Assembly (NCBI GenBank): GCA_016188265.1 | Contig: JACPID010000001.1 | Location: forward strand, 1,674-65,673 | Length of the DNA stretch: 64,000 nt | Direction of reading: 5' to 3' | Source: Candidatus Woesearchaeota archaeon | Lineage (GTDB): Archaea; Nanobdellota; Nanobdellia; Woesearchaeales; ARS49 | Part shown: positions 1 through 46,433 of the stretch, in pieces | Position numbering within the stretch: the stretch's first letter is position 1 | Layout: every line of letters starts with the position of its first letter | Program-made: the position numbers and the translations under genes | The notes under the pieces: generated by a model | What the model was told of the DNA's origin: nothing | What the model saw: only the letters and a program-made list of their open reading frames with translations | Databases searched by the model: none

Positions 1-900
1 ACTACTCTGCTGTTTGCTTTATTATCAATAATTTTAAAACCACCAGTTTGTGCTATTTTTTGTGCAAAGTTTTGTATTTCTTCATGTGTTGGCATTGCAT
101 CAATAGTTAATCTTTCTCTACTGTGCCCAATCCACATGTATCCTTTAAGTTCAACAAAAGTCATGTCAAGTTTGCTTAAGAATTTACCCCATAATTCAGG
201 TTCTACCATATTGTAGCCTTTTGTTAATGTTAAGCGCACAACACTTCTATTAAACTCTCCTAACTTGTTTAGTGTTGCTTGTAAATTATCCCATGCTTGC
301 TTTGGCAGAGGCATTGCTGTTTTTTCGTAAATCGCTTTTGCAGGACCGTACACGCTTACATAAATTTGTGTTGGTTGATGTTTTGTAAGTTTGTCAATCA
401 TTTCAGGAATAGTACCATTAGTAACAAGAAATGAACTTATTTTTTTTTCTTTAAGCACATCAATCATTTCAGGAAGTTTTGGATACATTGTTGGTTCTCC
501 TGTAAGAGAAATTGCAAAATGCAGGGGGTCTCTTGTTTGTTTAAAACGTTCTTGGTCTGTTCTCTCATTGCCTTTAAATCCATTAAGCAATCCTTGCCAC
601 GCTTTAATGCATCCTTCAACAATATCTTTAGGATTATCAACAGGGCCAATCCATTTAGGCCAAGAATATTTAGTATTGCGCCAGCAGAAAACGCAGCGGT
701 GATCACAAAGCCATGTTGGGCTCATTTCAACACAGCCCCAACTTTTAATGCCATAAAACTGGCATTTGTAACAAACATCTTCACTTTTCAAAGATTTTTT
801 AGTCCAGTGGCAGACTTTAACAACAGAATGATTGCCCACTACTCTGTATCCTTGATTTTCTAAATCTTTTTTTTCTAAATTACTTATTGTTGTTATTGCC
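1..900 (-). CDS. taw1: tRNA 4-demethylwyosine synthase Taw1/TYW1 (radical SAM), 3' end runs off the window
   Basis: Minus-strand ATG at 900..898. By-eye translation gives MAITTISNLEKK...CHWTK...CDHRCVFCWRN (radical-SAM CxxxCxxC) ...SLTGEPTMYP. Not in the ORF track because no stop lies within the window. Confidence 0.7.
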
Positions 901-37386: not shown

Positions 37387-37470
37387 TGCAGGAGGCAGGA
37401 TTCGAACCTGCGAAGGCACTAAGCCAACAGCTCTTGAGGCTGCCACGTTTGACCACTTCGCTACTCCTGC
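37387..37470 (-). tRNA. tRNA-Leu (anticodon CAA), no encoded CCA
   Basis: Reverse complement folds as GCAGGAG acceptor, D arm, anticodon stem GCAGC / loop CTCAAGA / stem GCTGT, long variable arm, T arm GCAGG-TTCGAAT-CCTGC, discriminator A. Confidence 0.85.
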
Positions 37471-38886: not shown

Positions 38887-38944
38887 TTTATTACAATAAT
38901 CCTTTTATACTAGTACTTTGTCATCAAAACGAGGGGGTTTGATA

Positions 38945-39688
38945 ATGAAACTAGTATTGCAAGATCCAACTTATTTAAAAGATAGTATTACAGTTATTTC
39001 TGAACTTGTTAATGAAGCGAGATTTACTGTTAACAAAGAAGGCTTGGAGCTTGTTGCAATGGATCCTGCAAATGTTGCAATGGTTGTGTTTAAATTATTA
39101 TCAAGTAATTTTTCAGAATTTCAAGTTGATGATAAAAAAGAACTTGCATTAAATCTTGCTAATTTAAAACAAGTGCTTAAACGATCTTCTGCTTCAGATG
39201 TTGTAAGTCTTGAAGTTGAAGATAATAAGTTAAAAGTTCAATTACGTTCTAATTCCACAAGAACATTTCATCTGCCATTGCTTGATCTTGAAGAAAGAGA
39301 ACAGAAAATACCAAACTTAAAATTTCCAGTGCAAGCAGAAATGCCGAGTGATGTGTTAAATCAAGCAGTTGAAGATTCTACAGTTGTTTCAGAAAGTGTA
39401 ACCCTGGAAATTGAACCGCAAAAATTCAGTGTGCTTGCAGAAGGAGATTTAAGTAAAGCTCATGTAGAAATTCCAGCAGATGAAACAGTAAAAATAACAA
39501 GTGAAACAAGTGCAAATGTAAGAGCAAAATATTCTGTTGAGTACTTAAAAAAAATGATGCAGGGAAGTAAATTAGCTGATAAAGTTACTGTTTTCTTAAA
39601 TCAGAATTATCCGTTAAAATTAGAATATAAAGTTGTTGATAAGTTATTACTTAACTTTATTCTAGCTCCCAGAGTAGAAAATAATTGA
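38945..39688 (+). CDS. pcn: DNA polymerase sliding clamp PCNA
   Basis: MKLVLQDPTYLKDSITVISELVNEARFTVNKEGLELVAMDPANVAMV and two-domain PCNA layout. Start at the internal Met. Confidence 0.75.
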   Translation: MKLVLQDPTYLKDSITVISELVNEARFTVNKEGLELVAMDPANVAMVVFKLLSSNFSEFQVDDKKELALNLANLKQVLKRSSASDVVSLEVEDNKLKVQLRSNSTRTFHLPLLDLEEREQKIPNLKFPVQAEMPSDVLNQAVEDSTVVSESVTLEIEPQKFSVLAEGDLSKAHVEIPADETVKITSETSANVRAKYSVEYLKKMMQGSKLADKVTVFLNQNYPLKLEYKVVDKLLLNFILAPRVENN

Positions 39689-39707: not shown

Positions 39708-40103
39708 CTAAAAATACCCTTTCCACAACCCAGATATTACACCAATATACTCAATTATCACATACAACCAGATAACGTAAAGAATCATTGCAGTTATTAC
39801 TAAAATAAGGAATAAGTTTATTATTTTATTTCTCTGTTTCTTTGCTTGATCTAAAGTGCAAATGCCTTTTTTTCTCAAATAAAAAATAAATGCAACTAAT
39901 AAAAAGAAAATTCCTGCAAATCTAAAAAACCATTTATATTGCCCATAGAACACGTCCGCTAAACTTGATGCAAAAGATGCTGTACTTAATCCGAGTAGGA
40001 ATAAAATCAATGGTGCAAAACAGCAGAGAGAGGCGACAAAAGCGCTAATGCTACTTAAGAAAAATATTTCTCTTTTATCAGGCTTTAAAATATCGTTAAC
40101 CAT
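39708..40103 (-). CDS. integral membrane protein
   Basis: Three or four hydrophobic helices. Confidence 0.4.
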   Translation of the reverse strand: MVNDILKPDKREIFFLSSISAFVASLCCFAPLILFLLGLSTASFASSLADVFYGQYKWFFRFAGIFFLLVAFIFYLRKKGICTLDQAKKQRNKIINLFLILVITAMILYVIWLYVIIEYIGVISGLWKGYF

Positions 40104-40133
40104 GCTTTTCCAATTTTTAGTGTTTTAAAATAT

Positions 40134-40472
40134 TTAATTTTTTTCTTTAATCGCCCACTTCATTAAAGGGATGGTTGCTTTTCTTAAGCTAACTCCTTTC
40201 TTTGTTAAAGAATATTCAACTCTTAGGGGTGTTTCTGCATAAACTGTTCTTTTGATTAAATTCATTTTTTCAAGTTCTTTAAGCCTGTCTGTTAATGTTT
40301 TTGGATTTATCTTTATTTTTGAAAGTAAATTATTAAATCTTAATTTCTTAAAATTTCCTATAGTTACAAGTATAGATAAAGTCCACTTCCGGCTTAACAC
40401 CTCTGCAGCGCCTTCTAAAGGACACGGACAATAACCTTCACCAACCATCTCACAGCTTTCATTACTTACCAT
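40134..40472 (-). CDS. HxlR-family wHTH transcriptional regulator
   Basis: CPLEGAAEVLSRKWTLSILVTIGN...LTDRLKELEKMNLIKRTVYAETPLRVEYSLTKKG. Confidence 0.75.
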   Translation of the reverse strand: MVSNESCEMVGEGYCPCPLEGAAEVLSRKWTLSILVTIGNFKKLRFNNLLSKIKINPKTLTDRLKELEKMNLIKRTVYAETPLRVEYSLTKKGVSLRKATIPLMKWAIKEKN

Positions 40473-40556
40473 TTTACCACTTACACATTTATATACCAGT
40501 ATTACTTTACTTCAGAAAGTAACTATACTATTTAAATCTATCGAGGTGAAAATAAA

Positions 40557-40679
40557 ATGGTTGAAAAGAAAGAAAATTGTTGTGCTGGAGGAATTTGTCC
40601 TTGCTGCTCGTGTTGTATTTGTGTATGTACAAAAACATTAAAACCAGAAGCTCGAAAATTATTAAAAGAACTATTGTAA
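40557..40679 (+). CDS. Cys-rich 40-aa peptide
   Basis: MVEKKENCCAGGICPCCSCCICVCTKTLKPEARKLLKELL has 10 Cys in 17 residues (positions 8-24). Below the ORF-track cutoff. Confidence 0.4.
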   Translation: MVEKKENCCAGGICPCCSCCICVCTKTLKPEARKLLKELL

Positions 40680-40700
40680 TTAGAATGTGGCGGATGGGTA

Positions 40701-41189
40701 ATGAAAAGAGTATTTGGTGCAATAAAACTAACATTAACTTCTAAGAAGCATTTAGCAATAGTCATGCTTTCTTCACTTATTATAATTTCTTTAGCTGTTT
40801 TTATTCCTGTATTTACTATTCCCGGCAATAGTTTAAGTTTTCAGCTTTCGTTATTGACTTGGGATAGTCTCGCGTTAACTATTTTATTTTCATTACTTTT
40901 TGGACTTTCAATTGCAATGCACATTTATGCTTCTTCATTAAACAAAAAAGTTGCGATAGGAAAAAAAGCAGGCACTAGTTTTGTTGGTTTTATTGCAACA
41001 TTATTTTCAGCAAAGCTGTGTCCTGTTTGTCTAATAACTCTCTTTAGTATACTTGGTATTGGAGGTTCTATACCCTTATTTTTATTCTCACACAGAACTA
41101 CAATATTAATTACAAGTTTAATTTTACTTTTAGCCTCTATATCTTTAGCTAGTAGAAGTATTTTTGTGTGTAAGCAGTGTGTTAGGTGA
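40701..41189 (+). CDS. membrane protein with intramembrane CPVC motif
   Basis: Several TM helices; LFSAKLCPVCLITLF; C-terminal CKQCVR. Confidence 0.45.
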   Translation: MKRVFGAIKLTLTSKKHLAIVMLSSLIIISLAVFIPVFTIPGNSLSFQLSLLTWDSLALTILFSLLFGLSIAMHIYASSLNKKVAIGKKAGTSFVGFIATLFSAKLCPVCLITLFSILGIGGSIPLFLFSHRTTILITSLILLLASISLASRSIFVCKQCVR

Positions 41190-41374
41190 TAAAAATAGAA
41201 AGCACTCTAACCTGTCCTGAATGTGGGGGTAAACAGAAAAAGAAAATTCCTGTAAATATATGCGTGCAAGTCTACAGGTGCAGTAATTGTAATAAACTGG
41301 TTTCAAGAAAAAAAGGATGCTGCGTATTTTGTGATTATGGAGACAAAAAGTGCCCTTCAGCTAAACAACATTAA
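41186..41374 (+). CDS. Cys-rich Zn-ribbon protein
   Basis: CPECGG...CSNCN...CCVFCDYGDKKC. ATGA overlap with the upstream gene. Confidence 0.45.
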   Translation: MIKIESTLTCPECGGKQKKKIPVNICVQVYRCSNCNKLVSRKKGCCVFCDYGDKKCPSAKQH

Positions 41375-41674
41375 ATTCAATTGTTCATCTCCTTCTTTAA
41401 AGGATATTATTAATTTCTGTTTTCCTAATTCTTTTACAAATACTTTTTGGTATGAATGAAGTATTTTTCTCCTTTAATTAAATAAGTTTCATAATCTTTT
41501 TTACTTAATGTTTCTTTATGCTCTCTCCTATTTCCAGATATTTTTCATCTTTGTTTTGGTGGTTGATGAATATTTTGTTTGGTCATATGAACTCCAATCA
41601 GGTTATTTAAAAAAGACTTAATCTGTTCAGGAACACCTAAAAAATTTTCTATTCAAAAACATAAAAAAACAAAA

Positions 41675-41832
41675 CTAGCTCACCGACGAAAAGTGCAAAA
41701 GTCTAGGTACAGTAATGGCCGTAATCCTTAGAGATAGGCATAATGTATTCAAGAGTGTAGGAGAAGGTATCTTCGGACTTACTTCTTTCAAGGAGGCTGG
41801 TGAGCCTTCCAGCATTTAGCTACTTTCCTGGA
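41675..41832. ncRNA. candidate structured RNA (GC-richer than the surrounding intergenic DNA)
   Basis: Long-range pairing GCTCACCG...GCTGGTGAGCC, inner stems TTCCAG/CTGGAA and GAAGG...CTTCGG. Lies in a roughly 600-nt ORF-free span. Confidence 0.3.
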
Positions 41833-41886
41833 ACAATAAGGAGGATGATTTATAGAGGCGTTTAAACTTGGTAAATACTTCCAGTT

Positions 41887-41974
41887 ACTTCTAATTACTA
41901 CTAATTTACTTCTAATCTTTGAAAATCAGATGAAAAATAGAAATACTTTTAAAATACTTCTAATTTACTTCTAA
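41887..41974 (+). promoter_or_regulatory. four ACTTCTAA direct repeats abutting the start codon of 41979..43382
   Basis: TTTACTTCTAA-like units at 41887, 41908, 41956 and 41967. Confidence 0.3.
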
Positions 41975-41978
41975 CAGA

Positions 41979-43382
41979 ATGGATGCTATACAACTTAAAG
42001 AAATAATAAGTCATGAGGAAAATCAAGAAGTTGAATTTAAGCAGTCTTTTCACAGTGCTCAAGATGTAAGCAAAATTCTATGTGGACTTGCCAATACATT
42101 GGGAGGCATTTTGATACTTGGCGTTGATGATGCTGGTCAGATTATTGGTTTGCATGAGAATTTGGACAAGCTTCAACAGAACATTTCTGCAGCAAATCAA
42201 TCAATTTCTCCTGTGCCGTTGATTAATGTAGAAATGCACAAGGTAGAAGAAAAAGACCTTGTTGCTGTTATTGTACAGAAAGCACCAGACAACTCATATC
42301 ATACATTCCAAGGGGCAATTTATGTAAGAATCGGAAGCACAACAAAGAGAATTGAAGGCAACACGCATTTAGAGTTTCTTAGAAATCGGCAAATCCTCTC
42401 ATTTGATGAATCATACGAGCTTTCCTGTAAAGTTGAAGACTTGGATATAGAAAAAATCAAGAGATACCTCAAAATAAGAAAGCAAGAGAATTATCTTGAT
42501 GAACATTCAGTTGAGGATTTTCTCATAAGTTCAAAAATAGCAACTCAGAATGGCCAGTTTAAGATAAAGAATCCAGCTGTACTTCTATTTGCTAAGGATC
42601 CTATAAAATTCCATCCTCAAATTGAACTAAAACTTGTTCAGTTCTCGGGCATTGAACCCGTCAATATTGTTGCACATAAACTTGTCCAGGAAGATTTGAT
42701 GGATGCTATTGAACAGGCAATTTCTTTTGTCGAAAAATATTTGAGTAAAGGAATCGAGATAAAATCCAAAGCTCGACGAGACGAAATTTATGAATATCCG
42801 CTAAATGTTATAAGAGAAGCAATTGTCAATGCAGTTGCCCACAGAGATTACTTCAGTAAAGATGCCATTCAGATTTATTTATTCGATGACAGAATAGAGA
42901 TCACCAATCCAGGATCGCTTCCGCACAATCTTCCAAGAGAACTCTTCGGGACAATATCTGTACAAAGAAATCCCATCACATATCGTTTTCTCAGAGACTT
43001 AGGTTATGTTGAAGGCTTGGGAACAGGCATTCCAAGAATGAAAAATGCTATGCGACAGGCTGGTTTGAATGATCCAGATTTCAAATTTACAGAGAGCTTT
43101 TTCAGAGTTGTTTTGTTTAATGCTAAAGGCAAGAAAAAGCCAATTGACAGTATTAAAGATTTGAATGACAGACAAAAAAAGGCACTGGAGTATTTGAAGA
43201 AACATAAATCGCTCAAGACTCAAACTTATTCAGAAATCAATAATGTTTCTCGTGCAACTGCAGTCAATGAGATTAATGAGATGATCCAGTACAAATACAT
43301 CAAAAAAGTAGGTGCTTTCAGAGGAGCGTATTACGTTCTTGAAGATGGAACTGCAGAACAATTGGAACAGGAGAAAAAATGA
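41979..43382 (+). CDS. AlbA_2 (Schlafen-like) plus HATPase_c_4 domain protein, putative ATP-dependent transcriptional regulator
   Basis: N-terminal AlbA_2-like block NQEVEFKQSF...LCGLANTLGGILILGVDD. C-terminal EAIVNAVAHRDY...IEITNPGSLP is an HATPase-like motif, followed by a wHTH. Noticeably higher GC and different codon usage than neighbours. Confidence 0.55.
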   Translation: MDAIQLKEIISHEENQEVEFKQSFHSAQDVSKILCGLANTLGGILILGVDDAGQIIGLHENLDKLQQNISAANQSISPVPLINVEMHKVEEKDLVAVIVQKAPDNSYHTFQGAIYVRIGSTTKRIEGNTHLEFLRNRQILSFDESYELSCKVEDLDIEKIKRYLKIRKQENYLDEHSVEDFLISSKIATQNGQFKIKNPAVLLFAKDPIKFHPQIELKLVQFSGIEPVNIVAHKLVQEDLMDAIEQAISFVEKYLSKGIEIKSKARRDEIYEYPLNVIREAIVNAVAHRDYFSKDAIQIYLFDDRIEITNPGSLPHNLPRELFGTISVQRNPITYRFLRDLGYVEGLGTGIPRMKNAMRQAGLNDPDFKFTESFFRVVLFNAKGKKKPIDSIKDLNDRQKKALEYLKKHKSLKTQTYSEINNVSRATAVNEINEMIQYKYIKKVGAFRGAYYVLEDGTAEQLEQEKK

Positions 43383-44838: not shown

Positions 44839-45882
44839 TTACCAGTATTTATATTTCCAAACTATTGCTTTTTCTATTATTTTCTTTAGTGCTGCCCCGA
44901 GAAGTCCTCCCCATGCAAATTCATTATATGTTATAATGCTGTACCAGTCTCCTAAGCTAATTACCATTAATCGATTGCCTGGTTTATATGTTAATAATTT
45001 TTTTTTATTTGCCAAGTTTAAAATATTTTTTGCAATAATTTGTCCATGGTATTCTGCATTTTGAGCGCTTTTTTCTTCTGGCAAATCAGTTAAATCACCG
45101 CCAACAAATATGTTAGGATTGTTTTTTAAGTTTAATGTTAATGTTGTTTTAATATAACCTTTCTTTGTTAGGTGTGAAGAAAATCCTTTAAGAAATTGCG
45201 TGTTGGGCTTTATTCCAGTGCACCATATTACGCAATCAGAGTAGAGCATTTCTCCCCCTGAAGTATGTAAATGCTTTCCTTGAAAATGTTCAGCTTTTTG
45301 ATTGAAATATATTTTAACTCCTTTTTTTGTAAGATACTCAAAAGCTAATAAGGAGGCTCCTTCATATTGTCTTTCTAATAATCTTGAAGTATATTGAATA
45401 ATTACAATGTGTTTATCTGTTTTTGTTGAAAGCTCTCCTGCAACTTCTGTGCCTGTATAACCTCCTCCAACTATTACTGCATTATTTGTTTTTTCAAGAA
45501 TTTTTCTAATATTATGCGCATCTTCAATTGTTTTTAATACATGCACTCCATTCATAATTGGTTTTGCTGTATGAGCGCCTGATGCTAGAACAAGATAGTC
45601 AAAAGAATATTTTTTGTTTTTTGTTTTAATTGTTTTTTTTGTTATACTTATGACTTCTTCTTGGATGATATTTGTATTTTTGAGAAAGTGTGAATAAGGT
45701 ATTTTTATTTTTGATTCATAGTATTTATTTGTTAGAATTTTATGAATTGAAGGGGTGTACTGAAAATAATCTTTTTTATCAAAAAGCAAAATTTTGTAGT
45801 TTGTAATAGGAATTTTTTTATCTAAAATTTTTGCGCATTGTGCTCCGCAAAAACCTCCCCCTATAATTGCAATTACTTTCAT
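44839..45882 (-). CDS. FAD/NAD(P)-dependent oxidoreductase (type II NADH dehydrogenase / SQR-like)
   Basis: MKVIAIIGGGFCGAQCA (GxGxxG) at the N-terminus and a second dinucleotide motif VIVGGGYTGTEVAGEL. Confidence 0.6.
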   Translation of the reverse strand: MKVIAIIGGGFCGAQCAKILDKKIPITNYKILLFDKKDYFQYTPSIHKILTNKYYESKIKIPYSHFLKNTNIIQEEVISITKKTIKTKNKKYSFDYLVLASGAHTAKPIMNGVHVLKTIEDAHNIRKILEKTNNAVIVGGGYTGTEVAGELSTKTDKHIVIIQYTSRLLERQYEGASLLAFEYLTKKGVKIYFNQKAEHFQGKHLHTSGGEMLYSDCVIWCTGIKPNTQFLKGFSSHLTKKGYIKTTLTLNLKNNPNIFVGGDLTDLPEEKSAQNAEYHGQIIAKNILNLANKKKLLTYKPGNRLMVISLGDWYSIITYNEFAWGGLLGAALKKIIEKAIVWKYKYW

Positions 45883-45977
45883 GGTAATAATATATATTTC
45901 AGTATAAAACAAAAAATAATGAAATAAAGATATAAAATTTTGCTAAAAATCAATGTAAAAAATTGTTAGTTTGGTTT

Positions 45978-46433
45978 TTATGTACATTTTTTGCTTTCAC
46001 TAAAAACCAAAGAGACTAATGCACCAAAGTAAGCAAAATTAACTGCAGTATTTCCACCGCCAGTGTTCATTACCATAATCTCTCGTAAAGTGCCTATTAT
46101 GTTGGTAGATGGTCCTAGTTTAAATGTTGAAATAAAAGCTATTAAAATTAAAAATGCAAGAAGTCCTGCTGCATATCTTGTATTATATCCTAAAAGAAGC
46201 GATATTCCTGCACTAAGTTCAATTAATATTGCAATAACTAAGATAATTTCTCCTAAATTAGCAAAAATGTTTTCAAACATTTCTTTAGCCATTCCAAAAG
46301 ATAATATTTTGTCAAGACCTGCCACTATAAATGCAACTCCAAAAAATGATCTTAATACTAAGTTTCCGGACTCGCTATAGCAGTTAGCTAGTTTACATTC
46401 ATCTAATTTCATTAAAACCACCTTAACAAACAA
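45978..46433 (-). CDS. DoxX-family membrane protein
   Basis: Four TM helices and size typical of DoxX. Confidence 0.5.
   Translation of the reverse strand: MFVKVVLMKLDECKLANCYSESGNLVLRSFFGVAFIVAGLDKILSFGMAKEMFENIFANLGEIILVIAILIELSAGISLLLGYNTRYAAGLLAFLILIAFISTFKLGPSTNIIGTLREIMVMNTGGGNTAVNFAYFGALVSLVFSESKKCT

What the first reader, a model, noticed from the sequence alone, without database searches (positions are those of the whole stretch)
41375..43382. Higher-GC patch: ORF-free 600 nt with a structured GC-rich segment and ACTTCTAA direct repeats leading into an AlbA_2/HATPase gene
From 41375 to 41978 there is no credible ORF. Inside lies a GC-richer segment (41675-41832) with nested long-range complementarity (GCTCACCG..GCTGGTGAGCC, TTCCAG/CTGGAA, a CTTCGG loop). 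Four TTTACTTCTAA-like direct repeats follow, ending 5 nt before the ATG of 41979..43382. That gene is clearly more GC-rich than its surroundings (codons such as ccg, cgg, ctc, ggc) and encodes an AlbA_2 (Schlafen-like) N-domain, HATPase_c_4 and wHTH architecture. This architecture recurs in defense and mobile-element contexts. The region looks like an imported regulatory unit with its own ncRNA or leader and operator repeats.
Basis: partly seen in the sequence, partly recalled or inferred. Interest (0 to 1): 0.55.

Follow-up and report, generated by a model that had tools for sequence, protein, structure and literature searches.

The report
Self-regulated archaeal Schlafen defence gene cassette
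The supposed structured RNA is the leftover tail of a broken small gene, while the short repeats are conserved control sites built into the promoter of a Schlafen-type nuclease-ATPase gene of a widespread, untested class, which this tiny archaeon probably acquired from elsewhere.

Summary
The window comes from a DPANN (Woesearchaeota-type) archaeon with about 30% GC.

- **Structured RNA: not supported.** Positions 41709-41819 are the last 36 codons plus stop of an 81-aa HARE-HTH gene. That gene is intact directly upstream of homologous loci (tblastn E 4e-15). Differences from it fall mainly on third codon positions. The fold is no better than shuffles (z +0.5), there is no Rfam hit, and the long-range helix is absent from homologs.
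- **Repeats: real, and more extensive than reported.** There are 4 distal and 3 proximal TACTTCTAA-type units with a 10-11 bp period. The archaeal TATA box is built into the proximal array, about 27 nt before the ATG, which implies a leaderless mRNA.
- **Repeats are conserved.** The same two-array layout precedes this gene in most of 66 unique loci and almost nowhere else. The variable centre of the unit tracks the recognition helix of the protein's own C-terminal wHTH. I infer autoregulatory operators.
- **The gene.** 41979-43382 encodes Schlafen/AlbA_2 (intact Ex4ExK motif) + GHKL ATPase + wHTH, a known, common and functionally untested class.
- **Context.** It is fused into R-M operons in about 30% of related loci. 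Here it is an orphan.
- **Composition.** GC3 is 31% against 19%, so import is probable.

The parts
41709..41819 (+). 3' relic (36 codons + TAG stop) of an 81-aa HARE-HTH gene.
   Evidence: tblastn with the intact L087 protein gives 78% identity over residues 47-82, E 4e-15. BLASTP against the L009 protein gives E 4e-15. Differences from L087 by codon position are 5/2/16. The 5' half of the gene is not detectable (shuffle p 0.2-0.8).
41820..41858 (+). Spacer after the HARE-HTH stop. It is homologous at DNA level to the same spacer in L084 and L087.
   Evidence: The local DNA alignment of window against L087 runs from the relic through the stop to TTTATAG.
41876..41915 (+). Distal operator array of 4 direct units: TACTTCCAG, TACTTCTAA, TACTACTAA, TACTTCTAA. 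Starts at 41876, 41886, 41896 and 41907, spaced 10, 10 and 11 bp.
   Evidence: The units align unit for unit with the arrays of 11 other loci of the same clade.
41944..41974 (+). Proximal operator array of 3 direct units: TACTTTTAA, TACTTCTAA, TACTTCTAA. Starts at 41944, 41955 and 41966. It spans the TATA box to 4 nt before the ATG.
   Evidence: The block AATACTTTTAAATACT..AAT is invariant or nearly so in 12 loci.
41947..41956 (+). TATA-box-like element TTTTAAAATA, formed by the junction of proximal units 1 and 2. Its centre lies 27-28 nt before the A of the ATG, which predicts a leaderless mRNA.
   Evidence: TTTAAATA is invariant across the clade. The position rule, TATA centred about 26-27 nt upstream of the transcription start in archaea, is established knowledge and was not tested here.
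41979..43382 (+). Gene for a 467-aa prokaryotic Schlafen (AlbA_2) - GHKL ATPase (HATPase_c_4) - wHTH protein ('Schlatpase-HTH').
   Evidence: Pfam. 1650 homologs with E <= 1e-20, named Woesearchaeota, Nanoarchaeota and DPANN. AF2 model with pLDDT 80. Foldseek matches to DIP2311 and SLFN11/13/14/5.
42018..42041 (+). Codons of the Schlafen catalytic motif E14-x4-E19-x-K21.
   Evidence: E14, E19 and K21 are invariant in 45 homologs. The motif is defined as catalytic in PMC13056530.
43164..43343 (+). C-terminal winged helix-turn-helix (aa 396-455). The recognition helix is aa 425-437 (nt 43251-43289).
   Evidence: Weak Pfam hits to DIP2311-like_C and HTH_DeoR. AF2 secondary structure H397-409, H414-421, H425-437, E441-444, E451-454. 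Foldseek matches to AspA, CadC and MarR wHTH domains. Residues 425-427 track the operator class.

Best explanation
Positions about 41.7-43.4 kb hold an orphaned cassette of the kind found in archaeal restriction-modification islands. It was probably acquired horizontally. It has three parts.

1. **A dead gene fragment.** 41709-41819 is the 3' relic of a small HARE-HTH gene. It is not an RNA element.
2. **A promoter made of repeats.** The TATA box is built into arrays of 10-11-bp direct repeats with core TTACTnnnAA. Four units lie 63-103 nt upstream of the ATG. Three units cover the TATA box and the start site. The mRNA is predicted to be leaderless.
3. **The gene.** It encodes a Schlafen nuclease, a GHKL ATPase and a wHTH in one protein.

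**Proposed mechanism (inferred).** The protein's own C-terminal wHTH reads the repeat units. Several subunits of an oligomer occupy adjacent units on one face of the DNA. Occupancy of the proximal array blocks TBP/TFB/RNA polymerase, giving negative autoregulation. The distal array adds cooperativity, or acts as an activating site at low protein level. This resembles the two-site operators of R-M controller proteins. Where the gene heads or sits inside an R-M operon, the same switch would also govern those genes. The Schlafen-GHKL part would be an ATP-dependent RNase effector or sensor, by analogy with characterised relatives.

**Shown here:** the relic, the repeat architecture, its conservation, its exclusivity to this promoter, its covariation with the recognition helix, the domain content and the compositional deviation.

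**Inferred:** who binds the repeats, the sign of regulation, the leaderless start, the nuclease activity and the import.
For: **Relic**
- E 4e-15. The intact gene lies directly upstream of the homolog in L009 and L084/85/87/88.
- DNA homology continues past the stop codon.
- differences fall mainly on third codon positions (5/2/16).

**Repeats**
- 4 clustered exact copies.
- the two-array layout appears in nearly every locus.
- the best 9-mer occurs at least 5 times in 43 of 66 unique upstream regions. Controls give 0/66 coding, 1/56 downstream and 0/52 far-upstream.
- only 1 extra cluster in 210 kb of flanks, and it is a tandem copy of the same promoter.
- no other cluster in the 64-kb window.
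- the TATA box is embedded in the array and invariant.

**Covariation.** Helix residues 425-427 pair with the unit centre as follows:
- (H/R/Y)AT with T(T/A)CT
- HGT with (C/T)ATA
- FGT with TATC
- LPx with TTAA
- N(A/T)M with AAC
- L059 is only 57% identical overall, yet has a YAT helix and TTCTAA units.

**Protein**
-.
- PADLOC matches the N-terminal SLFN-GHKL part of a pAgo model.
- Literature: PMC13056530 and bioRxiv 10.64898/2026.05.29.728809.

**R-M context:**

**Import**
- GC and GC3 outlier.
- gene GC regresses on flank GC with slope 0.51 over 46 loci.
- PCNA-defined relatives lack the gene within 7 kb.
- neighbours differ between loci.
Against: - No binding, expression or transcription-start data exist. 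The identity of the binder is inferred only.
- Operator class and helix class both follow the protein phylogeny, so the covariation is not independent of relatedness. One locus does not fit cleanly: L030 has an HAT helix with CATA/CGTA-type units.
- Some loci carry two unit types in one upstream region (L034, L035, L061, L064, L051). Simple self-binding does not explain this.
- Import is not proven. No sister genome with an empty site was found, no flanking repeats mark the insertion, and no viral relatives were found. A conserved protein can also be GC-richer than an AT-rich genome, although the GC3 excess argues against that.
- HisKinase-type pSlfns tested in E. coli gave no phage defence in PMC13056530, so the effector role is unproven for this architecture.
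Confidence: 0.7

Rival explanations
1. 41675-41832 encodes a structured non-coding RNA or 5' leader that regulates the downstream gene, with the repeats as operators.
For: The segment is GC-richer than its surroundings.
Against: - The fold is no better than shuffles: z +0.51, -0.17 and +0.79.
- There is no Rfam match even at E <= 10.
- The 5' arm of the helix lies in window-specific sequence absent from homologs. The TTCCAG/CTGGAA pair is broken in L084 and L087. The alifold covariation term is unfavourable.
- The conserved part translates to the C-terminus of a HARE-HTH protein, with substitutions biased to third positions.
- Most homologous loci lack the segment altogether.
- The TATA box lies downstream of it.
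Confidence: 0.03
2. The repeats are functional but are read by something other than the encoded protein. Candidates are another transcription factor, a paralogous Schlafen-wHTH protein, or the HARE-HTH protein. Alternatively they serve as promoter architecture (multiple TATA-like or bent-DNA elements) and not as operators.
For: - Units are A/T-rich, and one of them forms the TATA box.
- Some loci mix two unit classes, which suggests binding in trans by a paralog.
- A HARE-HTH gene sits next to the arrays in 5 loci.
Against: - Arrays occur only in front of this gene family, with 1 extra cluster in 210 kb of flanks.
- They persist across hosts of 25-54% GC.
- They change sequence in step with the recognition helix of the encoded wHTH.
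- HARE-HTH is absent from more than 90% of loci that have arrays.
- The 64-kb window has no paralog.
Confidence: 0.15
3. The gene is a vertically inherited, conserved DPANN regulator and was not imported. Its higher GC reflects amino-acid constraint or expression level. The HARE-HTH fragment is local decay.
For: - Homologs at 50-79% identity are found throughout the DPANN lineages.
- The gene's best non-self identity (79%) is similar to that of PCNA (72%).
- No insertion scars were found.
Against: - The excess is strongest at synonymous sites. GC3 z = +2.3 while GC2 z = -0.4.
- The relic next to the gene shares the elevated GC, and GC falls on both sides of the patch.
- Across loci, gene GC follows host GC with a slope of only 0.5.
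- The genomic neighbourhood differs in nearly every locus and is often an R-M island.
- The HARE relic is about 80% identical in DNA to loci whose Schlafen proteins are only 50% identical.
Confidence: 0.25

Closest known systems
Prokaryotic Schlafen proteins of the 'HisKinase-HTH' architecture (pSlfn; Nat Microbiol 2026, PMC13056530), also called small 'Schlatpase'-HTH proteins (bioRxiv 10.64898/2026.05.29.728809)
   Same: Same three-domain order: SLFN/AlbA_2 (PF04326) with Ex4ExK, GHKL ATPase (PF13749), C-terminal HTH. Same tendency to sit next to R-M genes.
   Different: - This architecture has no demonstrated function. The defence-active pSlfns were DUF262 and Ig-like fusions.
- In the text I searched, neither paper assigns a DNA target or role to the HTH.
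- The conserved TATA-embedded repeat arrays and their covariation with the recognition helix are described here.
- The host is a DPANN archaeon, and this copy has no defence neighbours.
SLFN-pAgo (RzAgo) of Runella zeae
   Same: Homologous N-terminal SLFN + GHKL module (PADLOC pAgo model, residues 6-388, E 2e-30). [quoted passage not shown]
   Different: No Argonaute core here. A 70-residue wHTH takes its place, so any sensing or tethering would be through sequence-specific DNA and not through a guide RNA.
DIP2311 of Corynebacterium diphtheriae (PDB 3lmm)
   Same: It is the only solved structure with full-length similarity: phmmer E 2e-11 and Foldseek E 3e-20. It includes the C-terminal wHTH family PF22168.
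   Different: It is an uncharacterised structural-genomics target with 16-18% identity and no known DNA site.
Controller (C) proteins of restriction-modification systems, such as C.PvuII, C.AhdI and C.Esp1396I (from my own knowledge)
   Same: A DNA-binding protein encoded at the head of, or inside, an R-M operon. Its own promoter carries a distal and a proximal operator, so that it feeds back on its own expression and on the expression of downstream R-M genes.
   Different: - C proteins are Xre-type HTH dimers of about 80-100 aa that bind palindromic C-boxes.
- Here the regulator is a 467-aa nuclease-ATPase fusion with a winged helix.
- The sites are 3-4 direct repeats per array, and the promoter is archaeal.
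- This is a functional analogy only.
AspA centromere-binding protein of the archaeal plasmid pNOB8 (PDB 5k5q)
   Same: Among the closest structural matches to the C-terminal wHTH.
   Different: AspA acts in plasmid partition, not as a promoter operator, and has no enzymatic domains.

Membership tests
Prokaryotic Schlafen / Schlatpase-HTH proteins | SLFN/AlbA_2 domain (PF04326) above the Pfam gathering score | tested here: met
   83.5 bits against a cut-off of 25.3, residues 14-125. Foldseek matches to SLFN11, SLFN13, SLFN14 and SLFN5.
Prokaryotic Schlafen / Schlatpase-HTH proteins | Catalytic Ex4(E/D)xK motif | tested here: met
   E14-NQEV-E19-F-K21 in the sequence. E14, E19 and K21 are invariant in 45 homologs.
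Prokaryotic Schlafen / Schlatpase-HTH proteins | GHKL-type ATPase domain (PF13749) | tested here: met
   79.7 bits against a cut-off of 26, residues 296-379. E280, N284, G346, G348 and G350 are invariant.
Prokaryotic Schlafen / Schlatpase-HTH proteins | C-terminal helix-turn-helix | tested here: met
   Sub-threshold Pfam hits to PF22168 and PF08220. AF2 gives an H-H-H-beta-beta topology. Foldseek matches to AspA, CadC and MarR.
Prokaryotic Schlafen / Schlatpase-HTH proteins | tRNA/RNA cleavage and protection against viruses | not testable with these tools
   This needs biochemistry and an infection assay. It has not been shown for this architecture in PMC13056530.
Prokaryotic Schlafen / Schlatpase-HTH proteins | Location in a defence island | tested here: inconclusive
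   Not met in this window: no R-M or nuclease homologs nearby. Met in 20 of 65 unique related loci.
Structured cis-regulatory RNA / ncRNA | Match to a curated RNA family | tested here: not met
   Rfam at gathering threshold finds only tRNA-Leu at 37387-37470. At E <= 10, 41300-42100 gives only chance miRNA and snoRNA hits in the repeat region.
Structured cis-regulatory RNA / ncRNA | Folding energy below that of shuffled sequence | tested here: not met
   z = +0.51, -0.17 and +0.79.
Structured cis-regulatory RNA / ncRNA | Helices kept by compensatory changes in homologs | tested here: not met
The covariation term is +2 (unfavourable). Only 5 sequences were available, so power is low.
HARE-HTH (PF05066) gene | Full domain above the Pfam threshold | tested here: not met
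   The window fragment gives no Pfam hit. The intact L009 homolog scores 42.8 bits against a cut-off of 25.9. The window keeps only residues 47-81, so it is a relic and not a functional member.
R-M controller (C) proteins | Small Xre-type HTH protein that binds palindromic C-boxes | tested here: not met
   The protein has 467 aa with a winged helix, and the sites are direct repeats. The resemblance is in regulatory logic only.

The most novel reading that the evidence does not exclude
The multi-unit arrays may be more than an autoregulatory operator. They could be a docking platform on which the ATP-dependent Schlafen-GHKL oligomer is held inactive on its own promoter.

A trigger that removes the protein from DNA would then do two things at once. 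It would derepress the gene, along with any co-transcribed R-M genes, and it would release an active RNase.

Lineage-specific pairs of unit sequence and recognition helix, together with upstream regions that mix unit classes, would form a recognition code. That code would wire paralogous Schlafen-wHTH proteins into a cross-regulating defence network in DPANN archaea.
Probability: 0.1. Interest if true: 0.75.

Novelty: new member of a known kind. Interest (0 to 1): 0.4.

Why it matters
SLFN-GHKL proteins with a C-terminal HTH make up a large part of all prokaryotic Schlafens. They are 19% of pSlfns in PMC13056530, and they are most of the roughly 60,000 'Schlatpase' proteins in the 2026 preprint. 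Even so, the architecture has no demonstrated function, and in the text I searched neither paper assigns a DNA target to the HTH.

This analysis gives a concrete, testable DNA target: TTACTnnnAA units in two arrays that include the TATA box. It also gives a candidate recognition code, pairing helix residues 425-427 with the centre of the unit.

If the prediction is correct, the HTH makes these proteins self-limiting regulators. Where they sit in R-M operons, they would also regulate restriction-modification in the reduced genomes of DPANN archaea.

There is also a practical lesson. GC-rich 'structured' patches in AT-rich genomes can be relics of imported coding sequence.

Tried and rejected
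- **Rfam.** Gathering and E-value modes found nothing relevant.
- **Folding.** Single-sequence folds on both strands and of the exact segment gave no signal. RNAalifold on 5 homologous sequences gave no covariation.
- **Identical contigs.** L001-L003 are 100% identical to the window and carry no comparative information.
- **5' half of the HARE-HTH gene.** I tested whether it survives in decayed form. It is not distinguishable from shuffles at protein level (p 0.21-0.48) or DNA level (p 0.77), so I call it a truncation.
- **Insertion scars.** No direct repeats flank the patch.
- **Synteny.**
  - The downstream 259-aa protein has no relatives besides itself.
  - The closest PCNA relatives are about 70% identical. 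One keeps the RNase J-PCNA pair, but nothing downstream is conserved. No empty-site comparison was therefore possible.
- **Viral contigs.** No relatives were found.
- **HARE fragment against 1.8 billion representatives.** Only 6 weak or short hits, which was uninformative.
- **Genome-contig scan.** It returned only 2 loci.
- **Bacterial plasmid homologs (25-30% identity).** One has its own direct and inverted repeats before the ATG (L092). One has none obvious (L093). Three are internal to operons. This is too few to generalise.
- **HARE-HTH protein as the binder of the repeats.** Rejected, because it is present in only 5 related loci.
- **Other motif clusters or paralogs in the window.** None were found.
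Full report
**Source and setting.** The window encodes PCNA (38918-39688) and an RNase J-like beta-CASP protein, so it is archaeal. Identical PCNA and related proteins are named Candidatus Woesearchaeota / DPANN in public records. Overall GC is 30.5%. Three public contigs (L001-L003) carry the same region at 100% identity and add no comparative information.

**Checking the observation.**
- No ORF above 46 aa lies in 41375-41978.
- 150-nt windows reach 38-41% GC at 41650-41874, against 24-29% on the upstream side.
- The gene 41979-43382 is the GC-richest 1.4-kb stretch of the window: 36.1% against 30.5 +/- 2.0%.
- The excess is mainly at synonymous sites. GC3 is 30.6% against 19.2 +/- 5.0%, z = 2.3, rank 2 of 61. 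GC2 has z = -0.4.
- Pfam confirms SLFN_AlbA_2, HATPase_c_4 and a weak C-terminal wHTH.
- TACTTCTAA occurs four times exactly at 41886, 41907, 41955 and 41966. The window holds 6 exact matches against 1.2 expected, and no shuffle reached 6.

**The 'structured segment' is a gene relic.**
- Rfam finds nothing there at gathering threshold or at E <= 10.
- The exact segment 41675-41832 folds no better than shuffles (z = +0.51). The wider 41660-41850 gives z = -0.17 and +0.79 on the two strands.
- The answer came from related loci. In L009, whose Schlafen protein is 79% identical, an 81-aa HARE-HTH gene (PF05066, 42.8 bits) lies directly upstream of the repeats. The same gene is present in L084, L085, L087 and L088.
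- Window 41709-41819 translates to TVMAVILRDRHNVFKSVGEGIFGLTSFKEAGEPSSI*. This is 78% identical to residues 47-82 of that protein, with the same stop (tblastn E 4e-15; BLASTP E 4e-15).
- Differences from L087 fall 5/2/16 on codon positions 1/2/3, which is the signature of coding constraint.
- DNA homology continues about 40 nt past the stop.
- The 5' half of the gene is not detectable (shuffle p 0.2-0.8), so the gene is truncated.

**The repeats are a conserved two-array operator that contains the promoter.**
- I collected 2 genome loci, 4 loci by exact protein look-up and 80 metagenome loci.
- Printing the 200 nt before each start codon shows the same design almost everywhere. A distal group and a proximal group of 3-4 direct units have a 10-11 bp period and the core TTACTnnnAA.
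- In the window the units start at -103 (degenerate), -93, -83 and -72, and at -35, -24 and -13, relative to the ATG.
- Quantitatively, the most repeated 9-mer (<= 1 mismatch) occurs 5.3 times on average in the 220 nt upstream. It occurs at least 5 times in 43 of 66 unique loci. The controls give 0/66 for coding, 1/56 for downstream and 0/52 for far-upstream regions.
- Clusters of a locus's own unit are found outside this promoter only once in 210 kb of flanks, and that case is a tandem copy of the same promoter.
- The 64-kb window has no other cluster.
- Within the window's clade, the block AATACTTTTAAATACT..AAT is invariant or nearly so. It contains a TTTAAATA element formed by the junction of proximal units 1 and 2. 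In the window this is 41947-41956, centred 27-28 nt before the ATG.
- By the established archaeal rule (TATA centred about 26-27 nt upstream of the start), the mRNA should be leaderless. Proximal units then cover both the TATA box and the start site. The start site is inferred and not measured.

**Covariation with the protein's own DNA-reading helix.**
- The centre of the unit changes with the protein lineage:
  - TTCT/TACT at >= 66% identity to the window protein
  - (C/T)ATA at 62-65%
  - TATC at 57-61%
  - TTAA/TTTA/TTCA at 48-55%
  - AACA in L067, L069 and L080
- The AF2 model (pLDDT 80) shows a C-terminal H-H-H-beta-beta winged helix with the recognition helix at 425-437. Foldseek matches AspA, CadC and MarR wHTH domains.
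- Residues 425-427 sort with the unit class: (H/R/Y)AT, HGT, FGT, LPx and N(A/T)M respectively.
- L059 is only 57% identical overall, yet has a YAT helix and TTCTAA-type units.
- This is the main evidence that the encoded wHTH reads the repeats. It is correlative and shares phylogeny. L030 fits poorly.

**What the gene is.**
- The N-terminal domain carries E14-x4-E19-x-K21, invariant in 45 homologs. This is the catalytic motif of Schlafen RNases as defined in PMC13056530.
- That paper lists 'HisKinase-HTH' fusions as 19.2% of prokaryotic Schlafens. It demonstrated phage defence only for the DUF262 and Ig-like fusions.
- A 2026 preprint (10.64898/2026.05.29.728809) names the SLFN+GHKL pair 'Schlatpase'. 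It shows ATP-driven tetramerisation in SLFN-pAgo. It notes that most Schlatpase proteins are small with a C-terminal HTH, and it reports exchange with type I R-M systems.
- PADLOC matches the N-terminal part of a pAgo model. The only full-length solved relative is the uncharacterised DIP2311, PDB 3lmm.
- The gene is therefore a member of a known, abundant class whose function has not been demonstrated.

**Genomic context elsewhere.**
- Clustering the neighbours of all loci and annotating them with Pfam shows recurrent R-M type neighbours: HsdM, HsdS, two kinds of HsdR, an Eco57I-type methylase with a SNF2+PLD helicase-nuclease, and PD-(D/E)XK nucleases. They are often on the same strand, with stop/start overlap.
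- 20 of 65 unique loci have such a neighbour within 3 kb.
- In the window there is none, and no relic of one.
- Instead, the cassette sits inside a redox/metal-type cluster: a MerT-like gene, HxlR, a GDCCVxC protein, a pyridine-nucleotide disulphide oxidoreductase and DoxX.

**Import.**
- The evidence in favour:
  - The GC3 excess.
  - The elevated GC shared by the adjacent relic, with GC falling on both sides of the patch.
  - Different neighbours in nearly every locus.
  - A HARE relic about 80% identical in DNA to loci whose Schlafen proteins are only 50% identical.
  - Gene GC following host GC with a slope of only 0.51 across 46 loci.
- What remains unproven:
  - No flanking repeats were found.
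  - No viral relatives were found.
  - No sister genome close enough for an empty-site comparison was found.

**Mechanism proposed.**
- *Shown:* the cis-architecture, its conservation, its exclusivity to this promoter, and the helix/unit covariation.
- *Inferred:* oligomers of the protein bind adjacent units through their wHTH domains.
  - Occupancy of the proximal array excludes TBP/TFB/RNAP, giving autorepression.
  - The distal array adds cooperativity or low-level activation.
  - In R-M operons the switch also sets expression of the downstream genes, as R-M controller proteins do.
  - The Schlafen-GHKL part is an ATP-dependent RNase effector or sensor, by analogy with characterised relatives.
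- Confidence by step:

| Step | Confidence |
|---|---|
| Gene relic | about 0.95 |
| Repeats as functional cis-elements | about 0.9 |
| Self-binding | about 0.7 |
| Repression | about 0.6 |
| Import | about 0.6 |

**Verdict.** The finding is half right. The repeats and the imported Schlafen-GHKL-wHTH gene stand, and they gain strong comparative support. The ncRNA/leader reading is refuted. The gene belongs to a known class. The operator arrays and their apparent recognition code are a useful and testable addition, not a new kind of system.

Noticed in passing
window 41186-41374 (+): A 62-aa ORF matches the GDCCVxC-domain (seleno)protein family (NF041374, E 3.4e-19). It was not called as a gene on the identical public contigs. 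Its start overlaps the end of the 162-aa ORF 40701-41189.
   Followed up: partly
window 39708-41374 and 44839-46433: The cassette sits in the middle of a redox/metal-type cluster: MerT-like, HxlR regulator, GDCCVxC protein, then pyridine-nucleotide disulphide oxidoreductase and DoxX/MauE. It may interrupt a functional unit.
   Followed up: no
L038 about 1416-1690: The whole promoter/operator unit of about 76 nt (TATA plus three TTACTATCA units) is tandemly repeated three to four times upstream of the homolog.
   Followed up: partly
L034, L035, L061, L064, L051 (200 nt upstream of the homolog): These upstream regions mix two unit classes, for example a TTACTTAAAG-type distal array with a TTACTATCA-type proximal array. 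In L051, TTACTTCTAA units lie upstream of TTACTATCAA units. This may mean cross-regulation by paralogs. L045 has a 26%-identical paralog immediately upstream.
   Followed up: partly
L004 1955-1973 and L005 3812-3830: The two loci share GTTCATTCTnGGCTGTTCA (within GGATGTTCATTCT.GGCTGTTCA) upstream of the homolog, at different distances. It is absent from the other 87 loci. Unexplained.
   Followed up: partly
L004 (contig CAYXQX010000227.1): The contig is titled as a Porphyromonadaceae MAG. It nevertheless carries a 70%-identical copy of this archaeal-type gene with the same TTACTTCTAA operators. It is probably a mis-binned DPANN contig.
   Followed up: no
L009 98-343; L084, L085, L087, L088 upstream genes: The 81-aa HARE-HTH protein is 80-96% identical between loci whose adjacent Schlafen proteins are only about 50% identical to the window protein. 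The small gene therefore seems to move or be conserved independently of its neighbour.
   Followed up: partly
46 related loci: Gene GC regresses on flanking GC with slope 0.51 (r = 0.77). The gene is GC-richer than AT-rich hosts and markedly GC-poorer than hosts above about 38% GC. This is consistent with frequent transfer.
   Followed up: yes
L092 about 2420-2470 (Chlorohelix plasmid NZ_CP128402.1): A bacterial homolog at 28% identity has its own motif, TAATCCCGCA, twice direct and once inverted just before the ATG. A TGTCTGTATATACAGACA palindrome occurs twice further upstream.
   Followed up: no
window 519-863 (+): This ORF has the highest GC3 in the window (45%) and no Pfam match. It could be another foreign or non-coding patch.
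   Followed up: no
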